Source: Carcharhinus longimanus
Lineage: Eukaryota
DNA: 64,000 nt
NCBI GenBank assembly: GCA_030264375.1
Contig: JASCQW010000119.1
Coordinates: forward strand, 8,796,506-8,860,505
Direction: 5' to 3'
Made by a program: the position numbers. Of this stretch, positions 1-64,000 are shown piece by piece; positions within the stretch are counted from its first letter, which is position 1, and each line of letters begins with the position of its first letter.

Positions 1-3000
1 ACCCCCTCACCCCTTTGAAGCCCCCACTCCCCCCCACAGCAGTCGAAGCAGCAGAAACGCATCGTCAGCAGGCCGCTGCATACCTCAGCATTGCCCGCGT
101 GGCTTCATGGGCCTCATTGTAGCGGGTTTCAACCTCAGTTTTGGGCTTCCACACAGCTGTCACCAGCCATGACATTAGCGGGTAACGCTTGCCACCCAAT
201 AGCCATCCAGGGAGCCTGTGCTGGTCTTCAAGAAGCCCTGGGATGTCTGACTGGTGGATCACAAAGCTGTCATGGGCACTACCTGCGGGGTATGCAAGGA
301 CCTGCATGATCTTCACAAATGCTCAGAGACAATTTGGATGATCAGGGAGAGGAAAAAAATTGGTTCAAAAATTGCTGCGGCCCAGCATGGAGAGGGGGAC
401 TGAGGGTCAGAAGATAGTGTGTGTCCCATCTGCTGGGCCCTACAAATGAAGAATCCCACAAATGGATGTGAAGACGCGAGCCCGGTCCTCCTGCTGTGCA
501 TGGCCTACATTAAAATTAATGAACAATCTTGCCCAGACATACAAGGAATCTGTGACATGCTACAAGCAAGTGTACACGGAGGCCTGTACAATTCCAGTTA
601 GGTCGCCACTGGGACCCTGGAATGAACTGTAGACAAAGAAATTGACGATTGCTGCCACCCCCACTTGCAGAAGGAGCCGATTTTCACCGCATCGCGGATG
701 TGCAACGTGTGAGAGCAAATGACTTGTACCATGGACTTAGGTGGCACATCTCATCCGAGCAGACCTCGAAGGAATTGTGGGGCCTGTACCTCCTTGTACT
801 TGGCACAATCCGCCATTTGTGCACCCTCTGAGGCGCCTGCTCACCCACCTCATGGTCCTGAGCCACAGCCCCTCCTGGTCCTGAGCCACAGCCCTCTGCC
901 CCCCGTCCCAGTGTCTATTGCTGGCTGCTCTTGCAGTGGCCTCTCCACGCCCACCACCCCATGAACCATCATCTCCTCTCCCTGCTGCTACCAACATGGC
1001 TCGATCAACGTCGAGTAAACCAAGATCCGTCTGCACAGTGGGGTTTGAAAACAGCATAGAATGACAGATGTTGATCATTGGCTGCATATAACGAGCACTA
1101 CTCGAATTCCACCCCACCCCCCACCTCCGCCGCCCCAACCAACTCACTTCGGCCAGAATCCCAACTTATGGAAGCTGACAACCTACACTGTACATTGTGC
1201 AATGCGTGTCCCAAAAATGTTGTGTGAGATTCCCATCATTCCAAATGCTGGCACAGGTCATGCAGGTCAGTGTGCAGACCTAAACAAGGGGCACCCATTA
1301 TCCTTCATTCATTGTCATGCGTTCACCTGCAGCATCTGTTACAGACATGTGTTGCTAATCCATTTAATAGGACAAGGACAGGCTGCAAATCAGCACCAGA
1401 TGTATGCCCAATGACAGTAGATACCATGCAATCTATTTCTGAAGCGCCAAATCCCAACCCAGTGCAGCAGCTCCTTCGACTATTTAGGCCTCAGTCAGCA
1501 CATGTACACTTCTCCGCCACCCCGGATATCTATCACTTAGTAGAGTCACTGACTACACCCTGCAGCAAGCCAATACCACTGCAAAATGTTGTGGAGAGGG
1601 ACGATGAGCGGGAGCCCTTGAGGCTACCTCCTGCAGTGCGCTTCATCGTGGCCAAGGAAGGGGGAGGGAGAGGATAGCTGTGTCGCTCAAGGTTGGCTCC
1701 CACAGTGCCCAGGGGTTGGGGTAGTGTGTGAGGAGGAGGGGCGCCGGAGTCCCTAACGGGACCTCACCGAGACAGCTGTGAGGAAATAGAACCAACCCCC
1801 CACCACAGATATCAGTGGCCTATAGGCCAACGCCTGCAGGCAGCAGGAGGGAGGCCACCAGACGCCCCCATGGCCTATCTGCAACATCTCCCGCTCTCCA
1901 CCAGCAGCCCTTATGTCCTTACGCCAGATTAAGGCTGCCATGCCAGGTTTTGACGTCCAAATACCTAGTCTGGTTCGTGCGAAAAACGTGGGAGATGCAG
2001 ATGTGGGCGAATATTTCCACGTGGATTCCAATATGGCGCGTCAAGGTACATAGGCTCATACTAATCAGGAGCCGGGCAATTTTCAACGGGTTCCCTGCGG
2101 TACTATTTCATTCTGGCTGGGAGATTCGCGCCGGTCGTTTCAACTATGGGAGACCCCACAAAACGTCCCGCACACGCATCTCCAGGCCCGACTCGCCAGA
2201 AAAGTTGGGGGTTGCGGTGGGAGAATCGCGGCCTATGTTTCAGATCCCGATGCTGTGCATCCAAGGTGGCTGCTCCGACACGGCATCAGTATTAATACAA
2301 TGGGCCTGACCATCTATGGATGTCAATTGCTTTCATGTATGCTGTAATGATGCAATGAATGATTAAATTTCCCCACTCTGTCACCCGTCAGAGTCTGTAG
2401 ACAAATTAAGGAGCTATCTGTGTGTCAAAGCAAGCGAGGCTACAGAAAGTGAATCTCCAAAGAAATCAAATTGATCGTAGTTGTGCGCTGATTTTCAGAA
2501 ATAAAAGACCTTGAGGCTAAAGTTGAACGACTTGGTGAGCTTTTTCTTTCCAAAAAGAGGAATGCAGACGAAATTGGAGCAAAATTAAATTCCAGTGTAA
2601 AAATAACGTCAGTGAACACTTAATAACGGTTGACATGTTTTTGACTTGTATGTTTTAACACTTCTCTGAATAGATTTTGGAATTATGAAACCTGTTGATG
2701 AGCAAATAAGAATTTGATGGATGAGACAGAACATTTGTAAGAACGATTACAGTGGTGTTCTGGTGTGGTTCCATCGCCCACAAGAGCAAGCTGTAAGGAA
2801 ACGTTCAGCTTTGGATAAGGGTCAATGTGGAAAAATTGTGGGTTTAGCGGAGAATAAAGATTACTTTTTTAAAAAAACAATTTGCGGAATATGTGCAGAG
2901 GTGGCTAGGACAACATTCATTTTTCATAACTTGTTGCTCTTCAAAATGCGTTGGCGATCTGCCTTCTTGTGCTACTGCAGTCCCAGAGATGCCCTTAGTC

Positions 3001-62200: not shown

Positions 62201-64000
62201 TCTGGCCACTAAGTTCACATTGATCCTTACCACAAATTTCCCTCGGGTCACTAAAACAAATTAAAACTTGATCCCGCATCGGTGATTGCATCCGAACCAT
62301 CAGGACAGTGTATAAGCCCTTTCATCAAGTTGCCCTGAGTGCTCCACCACTACAAACACTACCAATAAAACGTGTTTCATTCTTCCGTTAGAATGCGGTT
62401 CCATCCGAACGTCCTTTGCAATCACACACCACGGAAATCTGTCATAGGCAACAAAAAAAAAGCAATTCTACAAAACATTGATAAAGTAGCTTAACTATTT
62501 CCAAAATGTTGACCCATATATATTTTAAATCATCATCGTACGTTTAAACTTCTTATTGTTTTTAATATGTGGCAGATGTCTCACTCCTTTGCTTATGTAT
62601 ATGATTTAACCACATTTATCGTGATGCTAGACATTTTGCCAACGCCTTCAAAATCAAAGGATTGGACATCTTCACCAACCTATTAAGATTATATCCTCCA
62701 AGCTATTCCAGGACATGTTAGCATTAAAATTTCTAGAGATTACATGAAAACAAAAGCTGAACAGAATCCAGTCCTGTGCACAACAGTAACTTGCAATACC
62801 CATGTAGAAAAATTGCCAGAACATAGTCATTCTGAAAAGGTGAAAACCTCAGAATCCTGCTAAAATTTCAATTATTGGACAAAGTTTGGCATCTCAGAAC
62901 TTGCATCCTGTGGAACAATTTGGAAAATAAAGCTACAGTGAAATGACAGAGGATGTGAATTATTCAGCTCGTAAATGAACATCATGCCTCAATGCACAAT
63001 TTCCAGGTTCACTTGCGTAGTTTTGTGAAGTTCCAAAAACTGTCAAAAAAATAAATATATATATATATATATCTTGCGTAGTCCATTGACTCAGTCACAG
63101 ATGCACGAACGTTGAAAGATGTATTGCATGTCGTCGCCATTGCAGGTGCAGAGCAAACTTAGTTCCAAAGTACAATATATTTCCCACGAGATTCTCATTT
63201 TGGTTGAGGAATTCAGTTGGATTAGATATATTTTATTCAGTGAAAATCATCTGCTTGAATGCACTTCCAGAAATTTACAATCAGATATTCTCCAACTCTT
63301 TTGCGGATCTGCCGACAAAATTACCGAGAAATTTCAGTGGTGCTCCAGTTATAAAATCCTAACTTGCAGAAACATGTTTTCCCCTGTTCTTTTTTTCTGC
63401 ATAGACATTGAATCCCTTAACAAAAAATGGAGTAAGTAGCAGATGCACTTCCAGCCATTGGAATGTAACTTTCACACTTATGAATCCGAAGACGATATGC
63501 TCCCATCGTACTGATATGACTAAAATGCATTAATGATAAAAAAGGAAAATCGCAAAATTCGTTCTTTTCAATAGCTGATTATTAAAAATGGAAATGTTTC
63601 AATATCTGTTCTGAAAAAGAAACAGCATATGGATCTGAACCTGACTGTTGTTATCTAACAAATTTATTCTAAAACTGGGTCCTAATTTTATCTGCATCTG
63701 TAGCTGGTATACAATGATTGTATTAATGTGTACACACCTGATCTCTGTGCCGCCAAAAAGTGAAATATTCACGTAGATTCAAAACAAAACAGCTGTGAAA
63801 GGCTAACATGAAACTCTGTATCAGATTGATGAAATATCTTTGGTTGAACATGTCTTCAATATCTGAACTTTTCGATCCCCTTGCTGTCATTTTCAGTGTT
63901 TTTTTTTGTTTGTTTTTCTGTTGATAATTTTCTTTTGAAGTTTGGAACACCCTTCCGATTTTTCGTTCTTGTCTGCGTAAGCCTTGGTAAGTAAATGAAA

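What the first reader, a model, noticed from the sequence alone, without database searches (positions are those of the whole stretch)
2499..63431. Higher-order exon grammar records block duplications of the array
Seen: the exon-length order is 36-27-36-15 | 36-27-36-15 | 36-27-36-27-27-27-36-15 | 36-27-36-27-27. The run 26500-38126 (15-36-27-36-27-27) is repeated in the same order at 49279-63431, with matching last exons (ELDELEQKC / DIESLNKKW, both ending A|gtaagt). Splice sites are class-specific: 7 of 9 36-nt exons use GTG donors, and the six 27-nt exons that follow a 36-nt exon all end AG|gta. Two 15-nt exons share the acceptor aattcacag. Inference: the gene grew by tandem duplication of multi-exon blocks. 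The introns have since diverged beyond what I can recognise while frame and heptad pattern were kept, which implies purifying selection.
[Added by the scan's program, not by the reader: the finding's places include an assembly gap (unread letters, written N; its length is only estimated) at 9255 to 9354, 13867 to 13966, 18467 to 18476, 18931 to 19030, 25460 to 25545, 26763 to 26772. Whether the letters on both sides are continuous or in frame is not known: test that first.]
Basis: partly seen in the sequence, partly recalled or inferred. Interest (0 to 1): 0.7.

Follow-up and report, generated by a model that had tools for sequence, protein, structure and literature searches.

The report
Mini-exon array encoding a coiled coil
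Twenty-one tiny exons, all in the same reading phase, spell out a long helical rod protein that grew by copying its own exons, which is an ordinary way for such genes to lengthen; the gene itself could not be named.

Summary
The exons are real. On the + strand, 21 mini-exons (36, 27 or 15 nt) lie between 2499 and 63431. All are phase 1, and 20 have AG/GT borders. A generic control finds 19 such charged or Leu-rich candidates in this strand and phase, against 1-3 on the minus strand. They encode heptads: in the nine 36-nt exons 30 of 36 core positions are hydrophobic, against 5 of 63 others.

One exception is exon 3, which is 36 nt only with an AA acceptor; the canonical AG gives 27 nt.

Growth by exon duplication and coding constraint are supported. 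Duplication of multi-exon blocks is only suggested:
- Exons 6-13 and 14-21 share one length order (77 residues, 11 heptads each; nulls P 0.02-0.04).
- Positional partners are not closer than other same-length pairings (17 of 144 permutations).
- The 36-nt exons do not cluster by block position.
- Introns share nothing colinear.

All 11 N runs lie in introns, and continuity is supported at only 3.

The closest known case is the chicken BG heptad mini-exon tail.

The parts
2499..2534 (+). exon 1, 36 nt, phase 1; internal codons IKDLEAKVERL
   Evidence: cag|...|gtgagc; hydrophobic at local positions 2, 5, 9, 12; best six-frame hit is exon 3
4026..4052 (+). exon 2, 27 nt; ADLEEKAK
   Evidence: cag|...AG|gtaaag; belongs to the 27-nt 'after a 36' cluster
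5865..5900 (+). exon 3; 36 nt by homology (IQETDRKVKEL) but preceded by AA; the canonical AG gives 5874-5900, 27 nt (TDRKVKEL)
   Evidence: the 36-nt form is 19-20 of 36 nt identical to exons 1 and 15 and keeps hydrophobic residues at positions 2, 9 and 12 (position 5 is Thr)
11345..11359 (+). exon 4, 15 nt; KTYL
   Evidence: aattcacag|...|gtaagc
20574..20609 (+). exon 5, 36 nt, Cys type; MKTCEVSLNQL
   Evidence: tag|...|gtgaga; best six-frame hit is exon 19
21047..21073 (+). exon 6, 27 nt; EKLKANEK
   Evidence: AG|gtaatt; reciprocal best hit with exon 10, 21 of 27 nt
24015..24050 (+). exon 7, 36 nt, Cys type; LSECEDALKDF; ends in C
   Evidence: cag|...|gtgaga; top two six-frame hits are exons 19 and 11
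26500..26514 (+). exon 8, 15 nt; NLKN
   Evidence: aattcacag|...|gtaagt; 11 of 15 nt identical to exon 16
29868..29903 (+). exon 9, 36 nt; LSSRLQTENDT; CGC (Arg) where sister exons have TGC
   Evidence: cag|...|gtaagc; weakest member of its class (score 18.8)
30897..30923 (+). exon 10, 27 nt; EKLNTTEK
   Evidence: AG|gtaact; reciprocal best hit with exon 6
31635..31670 (+). exon 11, 36 nt, Cys type; LEKCKEALKKS
   Evidence: cag|...|gttgat, a weak donor; 24 of 36 nt identical to exon 19
33037..33063 (+). exon 12, 27 nt; KNAANKDK
   Evidence: AG|gtatct
38100..38126 (+). exon 13, 27 nt, follows a 27; LDELEQKC
   Evidence: cag|...A|gtaagt; hydrophobic at positions 2, 5, 9
41039..41065 (+). exon 14, 27 nt; EETDEKNL
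   Evidence: cag|...|gtaagc
42256..42291 (+). exon 15, 36 nt; LQDLNNTQEEL
   Evidence: cag|...|gtgaga; clusters with exons 1 and 3
49279..49293 (+). exon 16, 15 nt; KLKR
   Evidence: cag|...|gtaggt
50126..50161 (+). exon 17, 36 nt, Cys type; LTYCLEDVKKL
   Evidence: cag|...|gtggga
51294..51320 (+). exon 18, 27 nt; DKLKDKKR
   Evidence: AG|gtagcg
54628..54663 (+). exon 19, 36 nt, Cys type; LFDCQESLKQL
   Evidence: cag|...|gtgcgc; sister of exons 11, 7 and 5
57131..57157 (+). exon 20, 27 nt; YQLGGKEK
   Evidence: tag|...AG|gtactg
63405..63431 (+). exon 21, 27 nt, follows a 27; IESLNKKW
   Evidence: tag|...A|gtaagt

Best explanation
This is part of a real protein-coding gene on the + strand. It is an array of at least 21 symmetrical (phase 1-1) mini-exons that together encode about 200 residues of an alpha-helical heptad coiled-coil rod or stalk.

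The basic coding unit is a 36-nt exon. It encodes 12 residues, with core positions at local 2, 5, 9 and 12. It is followed by a 27-nt exon that completes 21 residues, which is three heptads. Two variants exist. A 36+15 pair makes 17 residues and shifts the register by +3. A 27+27 pair makes 18 residues and shifts it by +4.

The array grew by repeated tandem duplication of exons, most simply of the two-exon unit or of small groups of neighbours. One larger event, an 8-exon unit of 77 residues (11 heptads), is possible but not demonstrated.

Every exon is a multiple of 3, all are in one phase, and none ends in T. Copies can therefore be gained, lost or skipped without breaking the frame or creating a stop at a junction. 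This makes the length of the rod easy to change in evolution. That last point is an inference.

Five 36-nt exons keep a TGC cysteine at a core d position. This would allow disulfide links between parallel chains (inference).

The class-specific donors are best explained by coding constraint plus compensation. The 27-nt exons end in a Lys codon plus G, which gives AAG|gta with weak intron positions. The 36-nt exons mostly end in a Leu codon plus G, which gives a weak exon side and a strong gtgag intron side.
For: - Exon table: 21 exons, one phase, canonical AG/GT at 20 of 21.
- Strand and phase control: 19 candidates against 1-3 on the minus strand.
- No further copy was found by class profiles or by a scan of 3143 in-phase AG..GT segments. 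That scan was trained on the members and is therefore circular.
- Heptads: 30 of 36 core positions are hydrophobic against 5 of 63 others (P=2e-14). There are 0 Pro and 2 Gly in 183 complete codons.
- The a/d series runs on across exon borders and shifts by +3 at each 36+15 pair.
- Paralogy: class identity exceeds composition-matched shuffles in 0 of 2000 shuffles, and sister exons are the top six-frame hits for 6 of 18 queries.
- Coding constraint: codon-position differences are 0.475/0.242/0.617. Pooled pN/pS is 0.54 for the five best-supported pairs.
- Exon identity is 0.45 against 0.28-0.34 in the flanks.
- Last bases of the exons are G x17, A x3, C x1, T x0.
Against: - There are no transcripts and no protein homologue. 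The exons (5-12 residues) are below the 40-residue minimum of the database search, and the joined model was left out by rule. Expression and gene identity are therefore untested.
- For 9 of 18 exon queries, no sister exon is among the top 8 six-frame hits. Membership of those exons rests on splice signals, phase, composition and heptad fit.
- Exon 3 lacks a canonical acceptor in its homologous 36-nt form.
- Eight of the 11 gaps are untested and could hide exons.
- Pooled pN/pS for the offset-8 pairs is 0.89, with synonymous sites near saturation. Constraint is therefore on the pattern more than on individual residues.
- The three N-x-S/T sites are not clearly more than chance. My own rough estimate of the chance expectation, from the composition, is about 1.
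Confidence: 0.72

Rival explanations
1. One reading: the array grew mainly by tandem duplication of multi-exon blocks. First came a 36-27-36-15 block, then a 6- to 8-exon block, with exons 6-13 copied to give 14-21. The introns have since been randomised.
For: - Exons 6-13 and 14-21 have an identical length order and are directly adjacent. Nulls: P=0.0009 plain permutation, 0.017 unit permutation, 0.043 first-order Markov.
- Each copy is 77 residues, exactly 11 heptads. A +3 shift and a +4 shift therefore cancel within the unit.
- Three of six reciprocal-best exon pairs sit at an offset of 8: pairs 8-16, 11-19 and 13-21.
- Exon 9 has CGC where its partner, exon 17, has TGC. That is one transition away.
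Against: - The offset-8 excess of reciprocal-best pairs is not significant (P=0.13).
- Partners are not closer than other same-length pairings: 17 of 144 and 26 of 144 permutations.
- 36-nt exons do not cluster by block position (P=0.47 and 0.78). Exons 1 and 3, and exons 5 and 7, lie in the same block and are closer to each other than to their supposed partners in the other block.
- Exon 7 (Cys) pairs with exon 15 (Leu, two changes away).
- There is no colinear intron similarity.
- The longest-repeat statistic under structured nulls gives only P about 0.10.
- The tandem-period statistic was chosen after seeing the data.
Confidence: 0.35
2. The apparent grammar is partly a product of the scaffold. 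Exons may be hidden in gaps, or single-exon contigs may have been placed in the wrong order within a repetitive array.
For: - There are 11 N runs, and 8 have no evidence of continuity.
- Five contigs carry a single exon each: exons 4, 8, 12, 13 and 21.
- Two contigs carry none: 13967-18466 and 18477-18930.
- Gaps abut microsatellites and LINE fragments.
Against: - Every exon-bearing contig has its exons on the + strand and in phase 1.
- The a/d series continues across the introns that hold untested gaps. A hidden exon would therefore have to add whole heptads.
- Contig ends overlap at 2 gaps, and one RT fragment spans a third.
- The copies are far too diverged (about 52% identity) to be collapsed or duplicated haplotypes.
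Confidence: 0.15
3. There is no gene: the segments are chance open AG..GT stretches in A-rich DNA, or the decayed remains of a dead gene.
For: - Single exon peptides score no better against each other than against random six-frame windows for half of the queries.
- Exon 3 has lost its AG.
- Exon 11 has a poor donor, gttgat.
Against: - 19 candidates against 1-3 on the control strand.
- Heptad enrichment at P=2e-14.
- The codon-position pattern.
- No stop in any of the 21 exons in one common phase.
- Sister exons are the top hits out of about 128,000 positions for 6 queries.
Confidence: 0.04

Closest known systems
Cytoplasmic tail of chicken BG genes (butyrophilin relatives); PMC4046983, passages read
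   Same: A long run of very small exons that together encode heptad repeats with coiled-coil potential. In BG genes the exon number varies from 13 to 36 between gene copies. BG exons fall into sequence groups with recognisable patterns, which points to growth and shrinkage by exon gain and loss.
   Different: BG exons are 21 (sometimes 24) nt, one heptad each. Here the exons are 36, 27 and 15 nt, none is one heptad, and the three-heptad unit is split over two exons. BG genes have a signal, Ig V-like and transmembrane exon upstream; nothing of that kind is visible in the 2.5 kb upstream in this window. No sequence comparison was possible. The paper's exon-group figures are supplements, which I could not see.
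Nebulin super-repeats and the 8-exon triplicate region (PMC9109913 and PMC7754682, search listing with start of abstract only)
   Same: A higher-order order of exons in which a multi-exon block, eight exons in NEB, is repeated in tandem. Repeat number varies between species.
   Different: I recall nebulin modules as actin-binding repeats of about 35 residues on exons of about 100 nt. The human triplicated blocks are highly identical segmental duplications. Here the supposed copies are about 52% identical in the exons and unrecognisable in the introns, and the protein is a heptad coiled coil.
Neck or stalk of CD23 and related type II C-type lectin receptors (PMC6791321, passages read)
   Same: A heptad-repeat coiled-coil stalk that makes the receptor oligomeric. 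From recall, and not from any call: the CD23 neck consists of 21-residue repeats, each on its own 63-nt exon. That is the same three-heptad period as 36+27 nt here.
   Different: Here the 21 residues are split over two exons. No lectin domain lies in the window. Membership could not be tested.
Collagen-type exon arrays (27, 36, 45, 54 nt; recalled, from no call)
   Same: Exon lengths of 27 and 36 nt, all symmetrical, with split codons at every border.
   Different: There is no Gly-X-Y: only 2 Gly in 183 complete codons. The 15-nt exons are not multiples of 9.
Troponin T mini-exon cluster (PMC2447309, search listing only)
   Same: A cluster of very small exons in a helical protein, with a history of exon duplication.
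   Different: [quoted passage not shown]

Membership tests
Heptad-repeat alpha-helical coiled coil | Hydrophobic residues at a and d positions with 3-4 spacing | tested here: met
   In the 36-nt exons, 30 of 36 positions at local 2/5/9/12 are hydrophobic against 5 of 63 elsewhere (P=2e-14). The series continues across exon borders.
Heptad-repeat alpha-helical coiled coil | Few helix breakers; charged or polar residues outside the core | tested here: met
   0 Pro and 2 Gly in 183 codons; K 37, L 32, E 27, D 14.
Heptad-repeat alpha-helical coiled coil | Forms an oligomeric helical bundle | not testable with these tools
   Folding needs a joined model of at least 30 residues, and that step was left out.
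Tandem exon-duplication array of symmetrical exons | All exons are multiples of 3 with one intron phase | tested here: met
   21 of 21 exons are 36, 27 or 15 nt and phase 1.
Tandem exon-duplication array of symmetrical exons | Exons are paralogous to each other | tested here: met
   Class identity exceeds shuffles in 0 of 2000. Six of 18 queries have a sister exon as top six-frame hit. For 9 of 18 queries, however, no sister is in the top 8.
Tandem exon-duplication array of symmetrical exons | Exons are spliced into one transcript | not testable with these tools
Multi-exon block (super-repeat) duplication, nebulin type | The same order of exon lengths repeated in tandem | tested here: met
   Exons 6-13 and 14-21 are both 27-36-15-36-27-36-27-27. 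Nulls give P=0.043 to 0.0009. The longest-repeat statistic gives P about 0.10 under structured nulls.
Multi-exon block (super-repeat) duplication, nebulin type | Exons at the same position of different blocks are each other's closest relatives | tested here: not met
   36-nt exons: P=0.47 and 0.78. 8-exon partners: 17 of 144 and 26 of 144 permutations are as good. 27-nt exons do separate by context (P=0.007 and 0.013), but that split is 'after a 36' against 'after a 27', not block against block.
Multi-exon block (super-repeat) duplication, nebulin type | Colinear similarity of the introns between blocks | tested here: not met
   No colinear + strand hit was found (17 pairs; 29 hits, the best ones inverted repeat fragments). 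Flank alignment scores for same-class pairs are 10.4 and 10.1, against 10.2 and 10.1 for unrelated pairs.
Chicken BG / butyrophilin heptad mini-exon tail | Exons of 21 (or 24) nt, one heptad each | tested here: not met
   Exon lengths are 36, 27 and 15 nt. The family feature is taken from PMC4046983.
Chicken BG / butyrophilin heptad mini-exon tail | Ig V-like and transmembrane exons upstream of the array | not testable with these tools
   Only 2.5 kb lies upstream in the window. Nothing is recognisable there, and 2 of 2 ORFs tried have no Pfam hit.
CD23-like C-type lectin receptor neck | A C-type lectin domain on the same polypeptide | not testable with these tools
   It would lie outside the window, and no database search of the exons was possible.
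Collagen triple-helix exon array | Gly at every third residue | tested here: not met
   2 Gly in 183 codons, both in exon 20.

The most novel reading that the evidence does not exclude
The array belongs to a gene family not yet described. It would be a disulfide-stapled coiled-coil 'ruler' whose length is set by an 8-exon, 77-residue (exactly 11-heptad) super-repeat. Within that super-repeat, a +3 register shift (36+15 nt) and a +4 shift (27+27 nt) are built to cancel. The exon grammar itself, and not only the residues, would then be under selection. Rod length would vary between species in steps of whole super-repeats.
Probability: 0.15. Interest if true: 0.55.

Novelty: new member of a known kind. 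Interest (0 to 1): 0.3.

Why it matters
The array is a clean example of how a coiled-coil rod can be lengthened exon by exon. Every exon is symmetrical, none can create a stop at a junction, and the heptad register is written into the exon lengths: 36+27 nt makes three heptads. If the 8-exon, 11-heptad unit proved to be a true duplication unit that is conserved in related species, it would show selection acting on exon grammar to keep a coiled coil in register. That would be a counterpart to nebulin super-repeats and to the chicken BG tails. As it stands, this is an ordinary gene-structure feature in an unnamed gene.

Tried and rejected
All other protein tools state minima of 20-30 residues.
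- Search for an upstream or downstream larger exon: none is recognisable in 1-2498 or in 63432-64000.
- Extra or decayed exon copies: class profiles built from exon plus 12 nt on each side find only their own members. The next best hit has E of 1 or more.
- Do the 15-nt exons derive from 27-nt exons, or the 'after a 27' exons from 36-nt exons? In-frame sliding comparisons do not clearly exceed shuffles: shuffles reach the mean best score in 272 to 1745 of 2000 and the maximum in 101 to 1879 of 2000, the lowest being exon 8's 11/15 match to exon 18 (101 of 2000).
- Shared intron ends: exons 4 and 8 are 21 of 40 nt identical just upstream when anchored at the acceptor. Gapped local alignment of 150-nt flanks shows nothing above unrelated pairs.
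- dN/dS between partners: computed, but there are only 4-11 codons per pair and synonymous sites are near saturation, so I give it little weight.
- Rfam at gathering thresholds: 0 matches.
- Collagen reading of the 27/36-nt lengths: rejected because there is no Gly-X-Y.
- Human origin: I do not take the contig for human.
- Literature: four full-text term searches turned up no paper describing a 36/27/15-nt heptad exon array. Such searches cannot show that none exists.

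
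Full report
**The window.** It is 64,000 bases with 40% G+C, CpG observed/expected 0.67, and 955 N in 11 runs.

**The exons.**
- The two peptides quoted in the finding lie on the + strand at 38099-38125 and 63404-63430.
- Scans for open AG..GT segments, followed by a table of splice contexts, recover 21 + strand exons between 2499 and 63431. Their lengths are 36, 27 or 15 nt.
- Every exon ends with the first base of a codon (phase 1). Twenty of the 21 have canonical AG and GT.
- Exon 3 is the exception. The 36-nt form (5865-5900) keeps hydrophobic residues at positions 2, 9 and 12 (position 5 is Thr). It is also 19-20 of 36 nt identical to exons 1 and 15. But it is preceded by AA. The only nearby AG lies 9 nt downstream, in frame, and gives a 27-nt exon.

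- GTG donors occur in 7 of 9 36-nt exons and in 0 of the 12 others (Fisher P=3e-4).
- All 6 of the 27-nt exons that follow a 36-nt exon end AG|gta.
- Exons 4 and 8 share the acceptor aattcacag.
- Exons 13 and 21 end A|gtaagt.

**Gaps.** All 11 N runs lie in introns. None is closer than 249 nt to an exon, so no reading frame crosses a gap. I filled no gap and looked up no gap letters.
- At 13867-13966, the 100 nt before the gap recur after it at 93% identity. At 37449-37548, 39 nt recur at 100%. In both cases the contig ends overlap.
- The gap 39258-39357 lies inside one reverse-transcriptase fragment. Its left flank matches Pfam RVT_1 positions 39-88 and its right flank matches positions 118-196, on the same strand.
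- For the other 8 gaps I found no evidence either way.
- The contigs 13967-18466 and 18477-18930 carry no exon. Five contigs carry one exon each. The exon order therefore rests on the scaffold.
- One indirect check: the heptad series runs on across the introns that hold untested gaps. A hidden exon would have to add whole heptads.

**More than chance?**
- With generic thresholds (a pyrimidine-rich acceptor, at least 3 of 6 donor consensus matches, an open frame, and at least 60% E/K/L/Q/R/D/N), the + strand in phase 1 has 19 candidates. The three minus-strand phases have 3, 1 and 1.
- A scan of 3143 in-phase AG..GT segments of 9-150 nt ranks the 21 members above every segment that does not overlap a member. 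That scorer was trained on the members, so it is circular.
- Class profiles find no further or decayed copies.

**What the exons encode.**
- In the nine 36-nt exons, local positions 2, 5, 9 and 12 are hydrophobic in 30 of 36 cells. The other seven complete codons are hydrophobic in 5 of 63 (P=2e-14).
- The six 27-nt exons that follow a 36 have Leu (5) or Ala (1) at position 4.
- The 183 complete codons hold K 37, L 32, E 27, D 14, no Pro and 2 Gly.
- I did the register arithmetic on exon lengths, without joining any sequence.
  - 36+27 nt is 21 residues, three heptads.
  - 36+15 nt is 17 residues, and the observed a/d series shifts by +3 at each such pair.
  - Exons 6-13 and 14-21 each sum to 77 residues, 11 heptads.
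- Five 36-nt exons carry Cys, always TGC, at local position 5, which is a d position. Exon 9 has CGC there.
- Three N-x-S/T sites occur, in exons 9, 10 and 15. By my own rough estimate from the composition, about one is expected by chance.
- No exon ends in T, so no junction can form a stop at the split codon, whether native or after exon skipping.

**Paralogy and constraint.**
- Mean pairwise identity is 0.455 for the 36-nt class and 0.451 for the 27-nt class. Within-exon shuffles give 0.285 and 0.353, and 0 of 2000 shuffles reach the observed values. For the 15-nt class, 57 of 2000 do.
- I used each of 18 exon peptides (the three 15-nt exons were not used) as a query against about 128,000 six-frame positions of the window.
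  - Six queries (exons 1, 5, 6, 7, 10, 11) have a sister exon as the best non-self hit.
  - Three more (3, 17, 19) have one among the top 8.
  - Nine (2, 9, 12, 13, 14, 15, 18, 20, 21) have none.
- Differences between Cys-type exons fall on codon positions 1, 2 and 3 at 0.475, 0.242 and 0.617.
- Pooled pN/pS is 0.54 for the five best-supported pairs and 0.89 for the eight offset-8 pairs. Synonymous sites are near saturation.
- Flanking intron, splice consensus excluded, is 0.28-0.34 identical when anchored at the splice sites. Gapped alignment of 150-nt flanks gives the same scores for same-length pairs as for different-length pairs.
- Constraint on a coding, heptad-patterned sequence is therefore supported. 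Constraint on individual residues is weak.

**Block duplication.** Evidence for it:
- The 8-exon order 27-36-15-36-27-36-27-27 occurs twice, side by side. The nulls give P=0.0009 (permutation), 0.017 (permutation of 36+27, 36+15 and 27 units) and 0.043 (first-order Markov). This statistic was chosen after seeing the data.
- The more general longest-repeat statistic gives 0.003, 0.11 and 0.10.
- Three of six reciprocal-best pairs lie at an offset of 8 (P=0.13).

Evidence against it:
- The eight positional partners sum to 121 of 231 identical bases. Of the 144 within-length permutations (which include the observed pairing), 17 do as well, and 26 of 144 do as well by BLOSUM.
- Identity at offsets of 2, 4, 6 and 8 exons is 0.475, 0.475, 0.48 and 0.49.
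- 36-nt exons do not group by position in the block (P=0.47 and 0.78). They group as 5, 7, 11, 17, 19 (Cys type), then 1, 3, 15, then 9 alone. Neighbours therefore resemble each other.
- 27-nt exons do separate by context, 'after a 36' against 'after a 27' (P=0.013).
- No colinear intron similarity exists between the halves. The best hits are inverted repeat fragments.

The simplest reading is serial duplication of the two-exon, three-heptad unit, or homogenisation between neighbours. An 8-exon event remains possible.

**Class-specific splice sites.** The 27-nt exons end in a Lys codon plus G. That gives AAG|gta, but the intron positions +4 to +6 are poor. The 36-nt exons mostly end in a Leu codon plus G, with a poor exon side and gtgag in the intron. 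The coding sequence sets the exon side and the intron side compensates. This is my inference. It means that shared donors need not be inherited intron sequence.

**Identity of the gene.**
- It was not established. The exons encode 5-12 residues.
- None was searched or folded.
- Nothing recognisable lies in the 2.5 kb upstream or the 0.6 kb downstream.
- The closest case in print that I found is the cytoplasmic tail of chicken BG genes. It has 13 to 36 exons of 21 (sometimes 24) nt, each encoding 7 or 8 residues, with coiled-coil potential (PMC4046983, passages read). The exon-group figures of that paper are supplements, which I could not see.
- Other comparators are:
  - the nebulin 8-exon triplicate region (PMC9109913, search listing only);
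  - the CD23 heptad neck (PMC6791321, passages read).
- That CD23 repeats are 21 residues with one exon each is recalled, not taken from a call.

**Verdict.** It is not demonstrated for multi-exon blocks. This is a new member of a known kind and of modest interest.

**Unchecked:**
- transcripts;
- the neighbouring sequence;
- related species;
- 8 of the 11 gaps;
- the taxon;
- any database comparison of the protein.

The closed collections (metagenome and viral contigs) and the prokaryotic genome collection were not used and would not bear on a spliced eukaryotic gene.

Noticed in passing
window 1-2000: G+C is 54% here, against 34-45% in every later 2-kb bin. The long open frames here are rich in Pro, Arg and Ala, and 2 of 2 tried have no Pfam hit. 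The nature of this stretch is unknown.
   Followed up: partly
window 9359-10033 (+), 19031-19481 (-), 39087-40462 (+), 60118-60588 (+), 6307-7042 (-): Fragments of LINE-type reverse-transcriptase reading frames lie in the introns. Pfam RVT_1 matches mostly fall below the curated cut-off; one reaches 30.1 bits. The copies are about 61% identical to each other. I did not analyse them further, and I did not count breaks.
   Followed up: partly
window 13767-13866 / 13967-14066 and 37410-37448 / 37549-37587: The sequence just before each of these two gaps is repeated just after it (93% over 100 nt, and 100% over 39 nt). The contig ends overlap, so the stated gap lengths are probably too large.
   Followed up: yes
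window 32230-32270, 26688-26725, 25936-25998, 21981-22035: These are microsatellites: (TG)n directly abuts the gap at 32271, and (GT)n lies about 40 nt before the gap at 26763. (AAT/ACAATA)n and (AC)n lie elsewhere. This is a likely cause of assembly breaks.
   Followed up: no
window 29868-29903 (exon 9): The codon at the position where five sister exons have TGC (Cys) is CGC (Arg), one transition away. This exon also starts with the same 8 bases as exon 7.
   Followed up: partly
window 18804-18868 and 25551-25615: A 65-nt inverted pair, 83% identical. Each copy sits near a gap: 62 nt before the gap at 18931 and 5 nt after the gap at 25545. They are probably the ends of one repeat family that broke the assembly.
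   Followed up: no
window 45223-45290: A 68-nt stretch that matches its own reverse complement at 76%. It lies in the 7-kb intron between exons 15 and 16.
   Followed up: no
window 54080-54216, 41291-41478, 40314-40465: A short repeat of about 140 nt, 77-88% identical, occurs three times on the + strand. One copy starts exactly at the right edge of the gap at 53980-54079. Another lies at the 3' end of the LINE fragment at 39087-40462.
   Followed up: no
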